Origin: Zootoca vivipara
Lineage: Eukaryota
NCBI RefSeq assembly: GCF_963506605.1
Contig: NC_083276.1
Location: 50,344,001-50,408,000 of the forward strand
DNA: 64,000 nucleotides
Reading direction: 5' to 3'
Shown here: positions 13,566-57,183 of the stretch, piece by piece
Layout: the number at the start of each line of letters is the position of its first letter
Numbering within the stretch: the stretch's first letter is position 1
Notes under the pieces: generated by a model
What the model was told of the DNA's origin: nothing
Databases searched by the model: none
What the model saw: the letters and a program-made list of their open reading frames with translations, nothing else
Made by a program: the position numbers and the translations under genes

Positions 13566-13701
13566 CAGGCATCCCCAAACTGCGGCCCTCCAGACGTTTT
13601 GGCCTACAACTCCCATGATCTCTAGCTAACAGGACCAGTGGTCTGGGAAGATGGGAATTGTAGTCCAAAACATCTGGAGGGCTGAAGTTTGGGGATGCCT
13701 G
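13566..13701. mobile_element. 136-bp hAT MITE
   Basis: TIR caggcatccccaaact, TSD atctaagg. Confidence 0.92.
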
Positions 13702-14248
13702 ATCTAAGGTGTCTAGTGACTAGAATTGTAGGTACAGTATTTAAACTGTTTATTGTATCATCATCATCATTATTTCCATGCAATGTGTTGTTGTTGTAGT
13801 TGTTGTTGTTGTTGTTGTTTGGTGTATGAAAGTGTTTGCTCTACTTTGTTTTGCTATGTTTTATCAACCATGCAAAAATGTTTCATGGAACCGTTAGAAC
13901 ATTGGCCTTAGCTCAGTGTGTGGAAGGCTGGAGAGCTATGACCTGCTTTTCATTAATATTTGCCGCATCAAGTTTCCTTTTTGAGATGGTGCCTGACCTT
14001 CAGCAGATTCTAGCAGGCTAAAACATACCTTGAACAAAAGGTATCTTCTGATGACTCTTCCATTTCCAAACAATGTTTAGATGGCAGCTAGAAGCCAGAT
14101 TTTCTAGATTACTGCCTTGACTGCTGCCACAGAGTAGTTAGTTAGTTGGTTAGGTTTAGTTAGTATACCTCCCTTTATACTTAGATCACAGGGTGGTTCA
14201 CAACAAATTATAAAATGAGAACTTGTGCCTGGTTTTCAGAGTCCATGC

Positions 14249-14537
14249 CATAGCTGCCAAGTCTCCTGTTGAAAAATCCAGGATCAGCAGCTGCGCGGCA
14301 CCGGAAGTTGCTTCTACGCATGTCTGGACATGCATAGAAGCAACTTCCGGTGCCGGCGCTGCCCGATTTCCGGTGCCCAGACACGGGCAGAGCGGCACCT
14401 GAAAATGTGCAGAAGGAGCCTCCCTGGCAGGTAGGAAATCGGGGGATTTACGGGATTTTTTTCTATTCGGAATAACAGTGGGAAACGGATTAAAATCCGG
14501 GGGTTTCCCGCGAAAAACAGGAGACTTGGCAGCTATG
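14249..14537. mobile_element. hAT MITE (CATAGCTGCCAAGT TIR family)
   Basis: 22-bp perfect TIR catagctgccaagtctcctgtt, 8-bp TSD gtccatgc, CpG-rich. Confidence 0.9.
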
Positions 14538-14742: not shown

Positions 14743-14979
14743 AAAATAAAAAAAGTCCTTCCAGTAGCACCTTAGAGACCAACTAAGTTTGTTCTGGGTA
14801 TAAGCTTTCGTGTGCATGCACACTTCTTCAGATACACTTCTTCAGATCATGTACACTTCTTCATGCACACAAAAGCTCATACCAATGACAAACTTAGTTG
14901 GTCTCTAAGGTGCTACTGGAAGGACTTTTTTTATTTTGTTTCGACTACGGCAGACCAACACTGCTACTTACCTGTAATT
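14743..14979 (+). mobile_element. palindromic Penelope-like (pseudo-LTR) insert, copy A
   Basis: about 75 bp inverted arms (gtagcaccttagagaccaactaagtttg / caaacttagttggtctctaaggtgctac) plus unpaired 3' tail ...cagaccaacac..cctgtaa. Confidence 0.8.
14798..14835 (-). ncRNA. minimal type I hammerhead ribozyme motif of a Penelope-like element
   Basis: minus strand reads GUAU-CUGAAGA-A-GUGUGCAUGCACAC-GAAA-GC-UU-AUAC: stem I GUAU/AUAC, complete core, palindromic stem II, minimal stem III. Confidence 0.75.
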
Positions 14980-17750: not shown

Positions 17751-18271
17751 AGAAAAGCAATGACAAACCTAGACAGCATCCTAAAAAGCAGAGACATCAC
17801 CTTGCCGACAAAGGTCCGTATAGTTAAAGCTATGGTTTTCCCAGTAGTGATGTATGGAAGTGAGAGCTGGACCATAAAGAAGGCTGATTGCCGAAGAATT
17901 GATGCTTTTGAATTATGGTGCTGGAGGAGACTCTTGAGAGTCCCATGGACTGCAAGAAGATCAAACCTATCCATTCTGAAGGAAATCAGCCCTGAGTGCT
18001 CCCTGGAAGGACAGATCGTGAAGCTGAGACTCCAATACTTTGGCCACCTCATGAGAAGAGAAGAATCCTTGGAAAAGACCCTGATGTTGGGAAAGATTGA
18101 GGGCACTAGGAGAAGGGGACGACAGAGGACGAGATGGTTGGACAGTGTTCTCGAAGCTACCAACATGAGTCTGACCAAACTGCGGGAGGCGGTGCAAGAC
18201 AGGAGTGCCTGGCGTGCTATGGTCCATGGGATCACGAAGAGTCGGACACGACTAAACGACTAAACAACAAC
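17751..18271 (+). mobile_element. RTE-clade BovB LINE, 5'-truncated 3' end
   Basis: ORF 17760..18263 MTNLDSILKSRDITLPTKVRIVKAMVFPVVMYG...SRTRLND is BovB ORF C-terminus; (caa)n tail; TSD agttaaaac (17733-17741 / 18272-18280). Confidence 0.95.
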
Positions 18272-30180: not shown

Positions 30181-30316
30181 CAGGCATCCCCAAACTGCGG
30201 CCCTCCAGATGTTTTGGCCTACAACTCCCATGATCCCTAGCTAACAGGACCAGTGGTCAGGGATGATGGGAATTGTAGTCCAAAACATCTGGAGGGCCAA
30301 AGTTTGGGGATGCCTG
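30181..30316. mobile_element. 136-bp hAT MITE
   Basis: same TIR, TSD gggttgat. Confidence 0.92.
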
Positions 30317-34863: not shown

Positions 34864-35037
34864 AAAAGAGTGGTTGAACAGTTGCGGAAGAATTTGATGG
34901 TAAAGCAGGAACAGCCGGACAGTAAGTTTCAAATACAACCATTGGCACAGTCAGAAAATAAAATACAAACTCCACAGCCACTACAGCTACAGCAGCAGCA
35001 AACTACTGCAGCCTCTGCAAACCTGCTTGGATCACAG
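34864..35037 (+). CDS. PHF21A: PHF21A coding exon ([17 protein letters not shown]...NLLGSQ), 174 nt, phase 0-0
   Basis: tgatag|AAA acceptor, CAG|gtaaag donor; translation matches recalled vertebrate PHF21A N-terminal coiled-coil/Q-rich region. Confidence 0.96.
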
Positions 35038-35147
35038 GTAAAGTGGTTAAAGGTGTTACATTAATTTTCAAAATGTATTCCTGTATAAATGTATCACTGT
35101 ATAAAGAAGAGAACATAAAATCAGAGTTAACCTATCATAATCCAGTG

Positions 35148-35855
35148 CAGTGGTTCCCAACAGGTGGTCCGCGAGCTATGCCAGAGGGGTCCGCAAGATG
35201 CTATTAGAATAAAAATATATATTAAATATATTTCGTATGATAACAGATTTTTTGTTTTGGCCGCTTCCTGCATGAGCAGAGTCTAGCGCAAAACTAGAAT
35301 TAGATAGAGGCAGTAGTTCTGCTGTATGCCGTTAGGTGGCGCTTTACAAACACTACTGTTTTGCAAAGAGGCAGCGCACGCATTCTACTAACGCTCACCT
35401 CCCCAAGATGCTTTGCGCGTGTCGGCTTCATTTGTGCGCTACTGCGCAGGTACCCTGTCTTCTCCATTCCCCTCCCTCCTCCCTGGCGCACGCTGCCTCT
35501 TTGCAAAACAGAAGTGTTTGTAAACAAAGCGTTGTTTTTCGCAGAAGCTACAGTTCGCATAGTTAAAAATGGACCGTTGGTTAAAAAGTGGTTCGTTAAA
35601 ACGACAATGGCCTACAGATGAAGAGGAAGATAATGCATTTGATGTTCAAGCAAGTAAGTCAGTGACTCCCGAACCGATCTTGTCAGTGTCCATTGAACCT
35701 AAATCGTAACTGTAAAAAACGTATAAATATAAAATATAAAAAGACTCTTAATTTGGCTCTCACTTTTTAATTTTAGGATTAGGAATTAATGGGGGTCCTT
35801 GTCACAATAGCGGCTCGATGAGGGGTCCTCGAGAAAATTTTGTTGGGAACCCCTG
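35148..35855 (+). mobile_element. non-autonomous hAT (Charlie/Buster-like) transposon, copy 2
   Basis: same TIRs, 8-bp TSD atccagtg; near-identical to copy 1 apart from an 18-bp and a 78-bp indel. Confidence 0.93.
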
Positions 35856-35960
35856 ATCCAGTGCACACTTGCTAGAAAGTAAGTCATATTGAATTCAGTA
35901 AGACTCAATTCTGAATCAACATGTGTAGGATTGTGCTACAAAGCTATCAGTAGCATTTAA

Positions 35961-36166
35961 AACAAAATAAAAAATTCCTTCTAGTTGCACCTTAGAGACC
36001 AACTAAGTTTGTCATTGGTATGAGCTTTCGTGTGCATGTACACTTCTTCATGCACACAAAAGCTCATACCAATGACAAACTTAGTTGGTCTCTATGGTGC
36101 TACTGGAAGGATTTTGTTTATTTTGTTTCGACTACGTCAGACCAACACGGCTACCTACCTGTAACT
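35961..36166 (+). mobile_element. palindromic Penelope-like insert, copy B
   Basis: same arms and tail; 12-bp TSD agtagcatttaa (35949-35960 / 36167-36178). Confidence 0.85.
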
Positions 36167-37673
36167 AGTAGCATTTAAGTGAAACAAGAGCACTTTATGA
36201 TCTTGAGTCTAAGCATGGATCACTCCCCGCTTCCCCAGAAAGCTGTCAATTGCTGGATTTTGAAGTAACAGTATTATATGAATCTTGCATGCTTTAGTTT
36301 TTTTAATGTTTATTTAGGACCCTCATGATGAACTGATGTGCAACACTGCACATCAGGTTAACCAGGTTGTCTTTAACAGTTAAGGCACAGCTAATCTGTG
36401 TTAAGTGCTTTGAGTATACACTCTTGCTTTAAGAACTGGATCAGAATACAGTGCACCTAGTCCAGCATTTCCTGCAAGGATAGGTGTCCTTCATTGAAAA
36501 ATAATCTGGAATTGTCTTGAGTTTTCTCTTTTTGTGGAAATGATTGCCTTCAGTAGTTAACTAGGGAACTACAAGTGTCCAGAGATCTTGGTTCAGTATG
36601 TTTTAGCAACATGAAACAGAATATCAGAAATAATAATATAAAACCAATCAGGCTATAAACAAAGAAATACATAGAAAGGATCCACATAAACTGCCCCCCA
36701 CTGTCTTCTCCCCACAAATACAATAACAGAGATTAATGTAGTTGCTTCTATAATTGCTGAGGGCATTTGCTGAAATTTCAGTAAGTACTGTGTTATTTGT
36801 GTGTAGACATTTGACAGTCTAGCTTCTGATATATGGCTTATAATGAGGCAGAAGAGAGTAAACTCTCATCTCAACAGGGAACAACTATTCCTCTTTCTGT
36901 TCTCAGCTTGATAGAGACTATACTCTAGAGACTGGGAGATCTTGGGGGAAAATAAGGTATTTAGAAAGGTTCTAAGAAACAGAAATGGTGTTGGTTTGAT
37001 ACTCTCTCTTTTGAGAGCCACTTGACTGCCTCCTCCCTACAACTTCGGCCAGGGAGTGCCCCGAGTTTGGAGAAAGGTAAGCTTAGATGTTTTCTATTGC
37101 TCCTTCTCACTAGCTTCTAGAGTACTGGAAGTGCTTAAAGGAAAATTGCTGTTCTTTTAAGCAGCATTGGGGCAGCCAAGAATGTGAGCCTTTTCCTTGT
37201 GAGCAGTTATTTGCTCCCGCTGGCTCTTTGAGACCCTGTGGGCAGAACTAACACAATGGCTGGCTGTTACTGAAAATGGTGGCCCCTTGTTAAAAAAAAA
37301 AACCCTCTTCCATCAGTAACATGCCATGACACTATGTTTCCCTATCAGCAGCAAAATATATGGAGCAGAAGCAAGGAAGTGCACAGGGTGATGGCATCTG
37401 GACACATGCACAAGATGTTACAAATGAGGAGCTTGACATGAGGCATTTGTTTTTTGGCATTTATTTCATTTAGTTCTATTCTTGGAAACTTCATCTGGGG
37501 AGCAACAGCTCAGTGGCAGTGATGCTTTACATTCACAAGCTCCCAGAGTCAACCTGTGGCATTTCCAAGTTAGGGTTAGGAAAGACTTCTGCCTGAAATC
37601 TCTAGCATCTCCAAGTTAGGATCAGGAGAGACTACTAACTGGATTGCTTGAAAAAATCACTGCTAGTTAGTGC

Positions 37674-50035: not shown

Positions 50036-50171
50036 CAGGCATCCCCAAACTGCGGCCCTCCAGATGTTTTGGCCTACAACTCCCATGATCCCTAGCTAAC
50101 AGGACCAGAGGTCGGGGAAGATGGGAATTGTAGTCCAAAACATCTGGAGGGCCGAAGTTTGGGGATGCCTG
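50036..50171. mobile_element. 136-bp hAT MITE
   Basis: same TIR, TSD atctaagg. Confidence 0.92.
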
Positions 50172-55856: not shown

Positions 55857-56659
55857 GTATTATTACTGAATCAATAAAGTAAGGAGGAATTCTTGCTCAA
55901 GATAGTTGGACACAGCGTTAAGAGGAGTCAGAGTGAGTGCCTTCACTGACACCTGGCAGTTGCTTCTCGTTTATGGATTCTGCATACCTATATGGGGGAA
56001 AGTTTTCTTTTCTGTGAAAGTATCCTTCTGGTATGTGAGCCCAGTTGCCTATTCTGCCAGTTTAGCACAGGCTGTTGCTGAATTAAAGTTGATCTAACCC
56101 GTAGCTGATCTGCAGCACTGTCTGTTTTTGGAGAGTGGGGGAGTAATTTTTTATTACTCAGAAGGGAGGTAAATCCATCCTTCTCATGACAGCTGGGTTG
56201 GAATTGGAAGTTCTGGACTCACGACCTTGGTCAAGTCTCATCACTTCTCTGTACCTTCGTTTCCTCATAATAAATAGCTCCATGGTTGTAAGACCCAACT
56301 AATGAACACATTTTACACACAATCAGACTTGTATAACTTCTATGTTCTAGTGGGCTGCACTAGATGTTCCTCCAATGTGTTTTTTATGCTGCTGAGCTAA
56401 AGAGCCTCTGCATCTCATTCATGAAATATGCAGCTTGAGGATTGCTCTAACTTACATAACTGTATCTGTAGCCTCATTGTTGAAGCAGTCAAGAATAGCC
56501 AAATCAGGAACACCATCAGTATCTTTTCTGCACTGCTGGGTATTGCAAAAGATAAAATCAACAGGCAGCATTCCTACAGGATGCAAGTTCTGTGTTAAGA
56601 GCCATAGTCATTCATTCTCTAGGTATTGTATTATTCATGAAATCTCCGAACTATCAGAA

Positions 56660-57183
56660 CAAAATAAAAATAAAATAGAAAAATTTCTTCCGGTAGCACC
56701 TTAGAGACCTTAGAGTTTGCGCTGTGGTTAAATCACTGAGCCTAGGGCTTGCTGATCAGAAGGTCGGCGGTTCGAATCCCTGTGATGGGGTGAGCTCCCG
56801 TTGCTTGGTCCCAGCTCCTGCCAACCTAGCAGTTCGAAAGCACGTCAAAATGCAAGTAGATAAATAGGAACCGCTACAGCGGGAAGGTAAACAGCGTTTC
56901 CATGTGCTGCTCTGGTTTGCCAGAAGCGGCTTTGTCATGCTGGCCACATGACCTGGAAGCTATACGCCGGCTCCCTCGGCCAATAATGCGAGATGAGCGC
57001 GCAACCCCAGAGTCGGTCACAACTGGACCTAATGGTCAGGGGTCCCTTTACCTTTAAGTTTGTCATTGGTATGAGCTTTCGTGTGCATGCACACTTCTTA
57101 GAGGTGCTACCGGAAGGAATTTTTCTATTTTATTTTTATTTTGTTTCGACGGCAGACCAACACAGCTACCTACCTGTAACTAA
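56660..57183 (+). mobile_element. Penelope-like insert, copy D, interrupted by a Sauria SINE
   Basis: arms at 56660-56713 and 57057-57183; 11-bp TSD aactatcagaa (56649-56659 / 57184-57194). Confidence 0.82.
56720..57056 (+). mobile_element. Sauria SINE (slightly 5'-truncated)
   Basis: tRNA-like head with B box ggttcgaatcc, CpG-rich body, (accttt)n tail; flanking agtttg duplication. Confidence 0.9.

What the first reader, a model, noticed from the sequence alone, without database searches (positions are those of the whole stretch)
14798..14835. Complete minimal hammerhead ribozyme motif antisense to PHF21A
Seen: the minus strand reads GUAU CUGAAGA A GUGUGCAUGCACAC GAAA GC UU AUAC. All core nucleotides are present, with an extra A between A9 and stem II, a palindromic stem II and a stem III reduced to the self-complementary AGCU. 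Known: Penelope-like retroelements carry minimal type I hammerheads of this shape in their pseudo-LTRs, thought to cleave as dimers. Inference: this is the only copy in the window with an intact core and could self-cleave antisense transcripts.
Basis: partly seen in the sequence, partly recalled or inferred. Interest (0 to 1): 0.7.

Follow-up and report, generated by a model that had tools for sequence, protein, structure and literature searches.

The report
Hairpin-locked Penelope hammerhead in lizard intron
This self-cutting RNA motif is one of about 18,000 identical cores spread through a lizard genome by a Penelope-type jumping gene; here it faces against the PHF21A message and follows its own mirror image, so it is predicted to be locked in a long hairpin and is likely an ordinary, inactive insertion scar.

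Summary
It is not special. Its 30-nt core occurs 17,982 times in the genome, follows an RT + GIY-YIG ORF in 31 of 40 ORF-bearing copies, and is the lizard counterpart of a published turtle motif, with compensatory changes in both stems. Here it lies in one arm of a 235-bp head-to-head pLTR stub that two related organisms lack. An antisense RNA running through the stub makes the mirror arm first and is predicted to bury the ribozyme (26 kcal/mol penalty), so self-cleavage at this locus is unlikely; nothing was assayed and the RNA run was uninformative. One oddity: the stub is a mosaic. Its arms come from different subfamilies (1 of 22 pairs), and a 60-nt tract with a junction found only twice in the genome is shared with a stub 21 kb away. 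Two other stub pairs share junctions (40 kb, 1.55 Mb apart), hinting that dead stubs are re-copied. The scan has noted such hairpin-locked hammerheads before in other lizard genomes.

The parts
14798..14835 (-). Minimal type I hammerhead motif (stem I 4 bp, CUGAAGA, extra A, palindromic stem II, GAAA, AGCU, U17); predicted cut site between 14802 and 14801
   Evidence: matches consensus and turtle motif in PMC4209133 Fig. S3
14743..14847 (-). Left arm: 5'-truncated pLTR end without tail; inner part of subfamily B type (U17, CCCAGAAC), outer part A type and identical to the right arm
14820..14847 (.). 14-nt tandem duplication that repeats CUGAAGA; likely RT slippage at an AGTGT microhomology (inferred); also seen in many other copies
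14848..14907 (+). 60-nt tract, including the inversion junction, identical to 36035-36094; the 23-mer over the junction occurs only at these two places in the genome
14862..14937 (+). Right arm: pLTR end in PHF21A sense, cut inside stem II, no CUGANGA, GAAA changed to AAAA; pairs with the left arm (71 of 76)
14938..14977 (+). 40-nt one-sided tail typical of PLE insertions
   Evidence: tail described in PMC8557442, PMC11167929
14743..14977 (.). Whole head-to-head PLE stub, 235 bp, no target-site duplication; absent from contigs of organisms B and C, which hold about 32-34 other letters at the site
   Evidence: table 8 (X12 record 3, X14 record 9)
35949..36178 (.). Neighbouring head-to-head stub of the same family with a 12-bp target-site duplication and no intact core; shares the 60-nt tract; absent from organisms B and C
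34864..35037 (+). PHF21A coding exon (aa 52-109) closing the 44-kb intron that holds the motif

Best explanation
The motif is the pLTR hammerhead of a very abundant Penelope-like retrotransposon, left in a PHF21A intron as one arm of a short head-to-head insertion, where it is predicted to be buried in a long hairpin and is likely inactive. Steps. (1) Shown: the family has a full-length form, pLTR-ORF-pLTR with RT and GIY-YIG domains, with this hammerhead in each pLTR. (2) Shown: the 38-nt motif is 37-38 of 38 identical between four subfamilies whose flanks differ, and covaries with a turtle motif; inferred: it is kept by selection in active elements, where it would work as a dimer or with the element's protein. 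(3) Inferred: the element's protein nicked both target strands and copied the RNA end twice, once from the tail and once from the inner start site; both copies stopped early and were joined head to head, with loss of about 32 bp of target. (4) Shown: the centre of this stub is a mosaic; inferred: it was patched by template switches or later conversion, involving the stub 21 kb away and a subfamily-B copy that supplied the intact core. (5) Predicted: RNA crossing the stub in either direction folds into the arm-arm hairpin; the sense RNA has no catalytic core (shown).
For: 17,982 exact cores genome-wide, control 0. Core behind the ORF in 31 of 40 loci fetched through the RT thumb. L088 has hammerheads 3007 bp apart around a 2.7-kb ORF with one stop, an inverted pLTR and an 11-bp TSD. 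RVT_1 E 1.2e-11 and GIY-YIG E 3.5e-5, both above cut-off, in the 812-aa frame of L089. Nearest named protein relatives are turtle, 60-73% identical. Turtle motif GCAU CUGAAGAA GUGGG..CCCAC GAAA GCUU AUGC in PMC4209133 Fig. S3. Subfamily identity: upstream 53-67%, motif 97-100%, downstream 71-92%. Stub folds at -136.7 kcal/mol, z -18; cleavage-ready fold costs 26.4 kcal/mol here against 1.3-8.5 in eight native pLTR contexts. Empty site in two related organisms. Substitutions in copies 4/341 at core and 13/837 elsewhere in the motif, so no clear excess conservation after insertion (low power). 24 of 58 intact cores in 1.064 Mb have an inverted arm within 400 nt upstream.
Against: No cleavage assay was run. 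The folding model ignores tertiary contacts and proteins and also scores native pLTRs low (1e-1 to 1e-6). An antisense RNA starting inside the stub, between the arms, would escape the hairpin (0.06 for the left arm alone). The RNA run could not test expression: unique flanks and the PHF21A exon itself had depth 0. No listed contig spans the stub centre, so the mosaic rests on the assembly alone.
Confidence: 0.9

Rival explanations
1. The copy is a working ribozyme that cuts an antisense PHF21A transcript, with a partner hammerhead supplied in trans or with help from the element's protein.
For: All core bases are present; family RNA is abundant in one RNA run (5,398 of 7.5 million records laid, nearly all from other copies); the anole PLE hammerhead cuts when its protein is bound.
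Against: Hairpin lock of 17-26 kcal/mol, already during transcription; insertion absent in two relatives; no tandem partner; CUU is not one of the fastest triplets GUC and GUA and U17 marks only 467 of 17,982 cores; no locus-specific RNA seen, though that test failed its own control.
Confidence: 0.04
2. The insertion is a DNA MITE whose palindromic centre only resembles a hammerhead.
For: Short, with long inverted arms; Rfam reports only sub-threshold miRNA-like hairpins.
Against: The arms are 5'-truncated ends of an RT + GIY-YIG element; junctions and lengths differ between copies; one-sided tail and 11-15 bp TSDs in sister copies.
Confidence: 0.01
3. For the mosaic centre only: the 60-nt tract shared with the stub 21 kb away is an assembly or polishing artefact, not a biological transfer.
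For: No listed contig spans the centre, and all contigs laid at 14852 in three DNA runs carry C, not the window's T (table 3); palindromes are hard to assemble.
Against: Those contigs come from other family copies and the tool warns that a hole proves nothing; two further pairs share junctions with unrelated flanks; an error would not obviously pick the neighbour among thousands of copies.
Confidence: 0.2

Closest known systems
Minimal hammerheads (min-HHR) in pLTRs of metazoan Penelope-like elements, in particular the Chrysemys picta bellii motif (Cervera and de la Pena 2014, PMC4209133, Fig. S3)
   Same: CUGAAGA core, extra A before stem II, G10.1-C11.1 pair, GAAA, palindromic AGCU with no loop III, U17, 4-bp stem I; one compensatory pair change in stem I and one in stem II relative to the turtle motif.
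   Different: Lizard sequence with a fully palindromic stem II; in this copy the motif lies in a truncated inverted stub, not a working pLTR. I found no lizard motif of this family in the parts of that paper I read.
EN+ PLE insertions with inverted, 5'-truncated pLTR and one-sided tail (PMC8557442 Fig. 2; Pen2a_Av in PMC3846280)
   Same: Head-to-head arms, 40-nt tail on one side, TSDs in sister copies, occasional absence of a TSD.
   Different: No ORF left; arms of different subfamily; centre shared with a neighbouring stub.
PAc / Poseidon_Ac of Anolis carolinensis (Frangieh et al. 2024, PMC11167929)
   Same: Lizard PLE with pLTR hammerhead, two RT start sites defining the tail, both target strands cut and extended; hammerhead cuts only with protein and is not needed for insertion in vitro.
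   Different: PAc is Poseidon clade with its start codon inside stem II; this family has a CX4CX2C linker (Neptune/Nematis mark) and its first ATG 133 nt after C3.
Non-LTR retrozymes (bioRxiv 10.64898/2026.07.22.740005)
   Same: Non-autonomous, PLE-derived, type I hammerhead.
   Different: Retrozymes are head-to-tail tandems with a hammerhead in each unit; this is a single head-to-head stub.

Membership tests
PLE minimal hammerhead (min-HHR) | Core CUGANGA, GAAA, NUH | tested here: met
PLE minimal hammerhead (min-HHR) | Unpaired nucleotide between 9 and 10.1, G10.1-C11.1, short helix I, palindromic 15.2-16.2 without loop III | tested here: met
   features from PMC4209133
PLE minimal hammerhead (min-HHR) | Lies in the pLTRs of a PLE | tested here: met
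   L088 both pLTRs; 31 of 40 ORF-selected loci
PLE minimal hammerhead (min-HHR) | Covariation in stems across families | tested here: met
   two compensatory pair changes against the turtle motif; one comparison only, by eye
PLE minimal hammerhead (min-HHR) | Self-cleavage as dimer or with protein | not testable with these tools
   no assay; modelled as locked in this context
EN+ Penelope-like element | Single ORF with RT then C-terminal GIY-YIG endonuclease | tested here: met
   in parent copies L089, L095, L088; not in the stub itself
EN+ Penelope-like element | pLTRs, inverted 5'-truncated copy, 30-40 bp one-sided tail | tested here: met
   features
EN+ Penelope-like element | Target-site duplication | tested here: not met
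   none at this stub, about 32-34 target letters lost; present in sister copies; absence is also described for PLEs
Neptune clade | CX2-5CXXC Zn-finger-like linker before GIY-YIG (shared with Nematis) | tested here: met
   CNKPRCQLC at aa 672 of L089; definition
Neptune clade | RT phylogeny with named references | not tested
   no clade-labelled reference sequences were at hand
Non-LTR retrozyme | At least two consecutive tandem units each with a complete hammerhead | tested here: not met
   single core, inverted layout; definition
Rfam hammerhead families | Covariance-model match | tested here: not met
   no hammerhead family among 21 matches at E <= 10

The most novel reading that the evidence does not exclude
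Dead head-to-head Penelope stubs are not end points: they are re-copied as templates, whole or in patches, often into or onto a copy tens of kb away, most simply because the element's protein grabs the tail in a host pre-mRNA still tethered at its gene and reverse-transcribes it nearby. The window pair (21 kb, same gene, same strand), a pair on contig C3 (40 kb, same strand) and a pair 1.55 Mb apart would be footprints of this, and an intact hammerhead core at a locus could arrive by patching rather than be kept by selection.
Probability: 0.3. Interest if true: 0.5.

Novelty: new member of a known kind. Interest (0 to 1): 0.2.

Why it matters
As a ribozyme it matters little: it is one more copy of a described class, probably inert. 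It is a caution that an intact hammerhead core inside a gene says nothing about function when the genome holds about 18,000 of them and many sit behind their own mirror image. The family is a good test bed for the open question of what PLE hammerheads do: near-intact elements (L088, L089), a natural four-unit tandem (L061) and subfamilies with C17 or U17 are at hand. If the shared junctions are real, they would expose steps of PLE insertion (template switching, re-use of stubs) that in vitro work has not yet reached.

Tried and rejected
Rfam scan: no hammerhead model matches; sub-threshold mir-559 hits are just the hairpin. PDB sequence search with the ORF: 0 hits. Expression: no RNA holder listed; about 6% of RNA run X21 was laid, giving no reads on unique flanks and none on the PHF21A exon, so no verdict; no pile-up of read ends at the cut site, which such libraries need not show. 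High-copy palindromic subfamily: rejected, the junction occurs twice only. Segmental duplication as source of shared junctions: rejected, flanks do not align. Arms usually copied from two different RNAs: rejected for this family, 21 of 22 classifiable pairs are concordant against 33% expected (20 of 42 pairs were unclassifiable). General local bias of junction sharing: not shown. Among 18 inverted stubs outside the window, 0 of 10 pairs within 50 kb share a composite junction (one pair 523 bp apart shares a few 22-mers and looks like one compound event) and 1 of 143 farther pairs does; one search also listed hits from an unrelated MITE that had entered a reference, which I dropped. Dimer model: the classical double hammerhead scores -10.9 against -31.2 kcal/mol for a stem II duplex; not used as evidence, since the model lacks core contacts. 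Literature on local re-copying of PLE stubs: searches listed nothing on point (listings only).

Full report
Observation. It is the only match in the window at up to 3 mismatches, with 0 of 100 shuffles matching, and the only site a generic type I descriptor finds. Rfam has no hammerhead match. A window exon is 96-100% identical to PHF21A proteins of reptiles and birds, best hits lizards. Exons map on the + strand, the coding exon for aa 29-51 ending about 9.6 kb before the window and the next starting at 34864. The motif is thus antisense within a 44-kb intron.

What it belongs to. The 30-nt core occurs 8,945 + 9,037 = 17,982 times in G000, the reversed control 0 times. Walking upstream from sister copies led to an ORF with an RT thumb and a GIY-YIG domain. 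Of 40 loci fetched through that ORF, 31 carry the core just behind it. L088 is near full length: inverted pLTR, pLTR with hammerhead, ORF with one stop, pLTR with hammerhead 3,007 bp later, 11-bp TSD. L089 has an open 812-aa frame with RVT_1 and GIY-YIG above Pfam cut-offs and a CX4CX2C linker, the mark of the Neptune and Nematis clades (PMC8557442, passages); I built no tree. The closest named proteins are from turtles, 60-73% identical. Cervera and de la Pena (PMC4209133; main text parts 1-2 of 4, supplement file 2 parts 1-2 of 3, file 1 not searchable) define this minimal hammerhead and list a turtle motif with the same core, AGCU and U17 that differs by one compensatory pair in each stem. 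Between four subfamily representatives the motif is 37-38 of 38 identical, while 150 nt upstream are 53-67% and 60 nt downstream 71-92% identical: inferred selection on the motif in active lineages. Among inserted copies, substitutions are 4/341 at core positions and 13/837 at other motif positions, and 28 of 31 have an intact core (34 of 40 loci had the ORF end, 31 an ungapped motif). An intact core is therefore the default.

The locus. The motif lies in the left arm (14743-14847) of a head-to-head stub whose right arm (14862-14937) is 71 of 76 identical and carries a 40-nt tail. This layout is described for PLEs (passages of PMC8557442 and PMC3846280). Contigs of organisms B and C bridge the site without the stub and hold about 32-34 other letters there; there is no TSD. 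A run of organism A has contigs entering both ends. The stub folds at -136.7 kcal/mol, z -18. The cleavage-ready fold has modelled probability 0.10 for the motif alone, 0.06 for the left arm alone, 5e-13 when a nascent antisense RNA has just finished the motif, and 2e-19 for the whole stub; eight native pLTR contexts give 1e-1 to 1e-6. The + strand, which PHF21A transcribes, has no CUGANGA in the stub. The lock is common: 24 of 58 intact cores in 1.064 Mb have an inverted arm within 400 nt upstream. Published activity is weak: none as monomer, low as dimer; the anole PLE hammerhead cuts only with protein and is dispensable for insertion in vitro (PMC11167929, parts 1-2 of 4). U17 is a minority state, 467 cores, typical of subfamily B; GUC and GUA are the fastest triplets (PMC3138052, passages), and that U17 is slower than C17 is recalled, not from a call. 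RNA data gave no verdict: unique flanks and the PHF21A exon both had depth 0 in the 6% of run X21 read, and reads on the stub came from other copies.

Mechanism. Shown: parent element, stub anatomy, empty sites, hairpin potential. Inferred: both target strands were primed from the element's RNA end, at the two start sites that define the tail, and the two short cDNAs were joined. In this family both arms usually come from one subfamily, 21 of 22 classifiable pairs against 33% expected, out of 42 pairs found, which fits a single RNA source.

The oddity. The query is that one discordant pair: the inner left arm is B type, the inner right arm A type, while the outer 51 nt are identical and share a variant found 36 times in the genome, two of them here. 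The 23-mer over its junction occurs exactly twice in 1.44 Gb, here and at 36035, same strand, 21 kb away, within a 60-nt identical tract. The unmutated junction occurs 47 times and the point variant 98 times, so 0.26 such copies are expected by independent origin and a second one this close has odds near 3e-5. The 36-kb stub is simple, has a TSD and is also absent from B and C, so the order is not settled; it is the more parsimonious donor. Among the 47 hits I checked the closest pair, 40 kb apart on C3: they share 147 nt at 98.6% with two junctions and unrelated flanks. A scan of 1.064 Mb found one more pair, 202 nt at 98%, 1.55 Mb apart, and no excess among near pairs (0 of 10 against 1 of 143). 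So re-copying of stubs is suggested by three cases, a local bias by two, and an assembly artefact is not excluded for the query. Three literature searches listed nothing on this (listings only). Supplements of the retrozyme preprint (part 1 of 5 and passages read) are closed and may list lizard families.

Verdict. A real, known kind of motif in an ordinary and probably inert insertion. Earlier notes of this scan reached the same reading on other lizard genomes; they are not independent evidence. Interest 0.2, carried mostly by the mosaic centre.

Noticed in passing
window 14848-14907 and 36035-36094: Two PLE stubs in neighbouring PHF21A introns share a 60-nt identical tract with a junction unique to them in the genome.
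   Followed up: yes
L202:883-1028 and L203:913-1059 (G000:C3, 40 kb apart): Two stubs share 147 nt with a double junction but not their flanks; L203 continues into a different template.
   Followed up: partly
L244:6028-6237 and L280:6216-6425 (G000:C1, 1.55 Mb apart): Whole 202-nt palindromic stub repeated at 98% with unrelated flanks, as if re-copied as a unit. L244 also shares a private core variant with a stub 23 kb away in L246.
   Followed up: partly
L255:6026-6800: Two inverted stubs 523 bp apart with subfamily marks swapped between arms and an inverted copy of the upstream flank: likely one compound event using two RNAs.
   Followed up: no
L061:3300-5750 (G000:C1 about 2.778 Mb): Four head-to-tail units of 598 bp, each with endonuclease end, pLTR, intact hammerhead and ORF start: a natural tandem that meets the retrozyme definition and could form the dimer.
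   Followed up: no
L088:1430-5170; L089:799-3234 (-): Near full-length element with one in-frame stop, and a 5'-truncated copy with an open 812-aa RT-EN frame; copies 97-99% alike suggest recent activity.
   Followed up: partly
L041:1600-1645 and other native pLTRs: Sequence just upstream of the motif can pair with CUGAAGAAGU in subfamily A, a possible built-in off switch; it is missing from the query copy.
   Followed up: no
window 14743-14937 (+) and 35960-36125 (+): Both stubs would form long double-stranded hairpins in PHF21A pre-mRNA, possible A-to-I editing substrates (inferred).
   Followed up: no
window 56658-57181: A third stub of the family split by a roughly 340-bp unrelated insertion.
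   Followed up: no
window 14241-14537 and 35140-35855: Other repeats absent from contigs of organism C (both) and B (the second): lineage-specific insertions in the same introns.
   Followed up: no
window 13592-13675, 30207-30290, 50062-50145: Palindromic MITE-like repeat giving sub-threshold mir-5408 matches.
   Followed up: no
window 17751-18263 (+): 170-aa frame resembling the end of an RTE/BovB-type LINE ORF (family name recalled, not tested).
   Followed up: no
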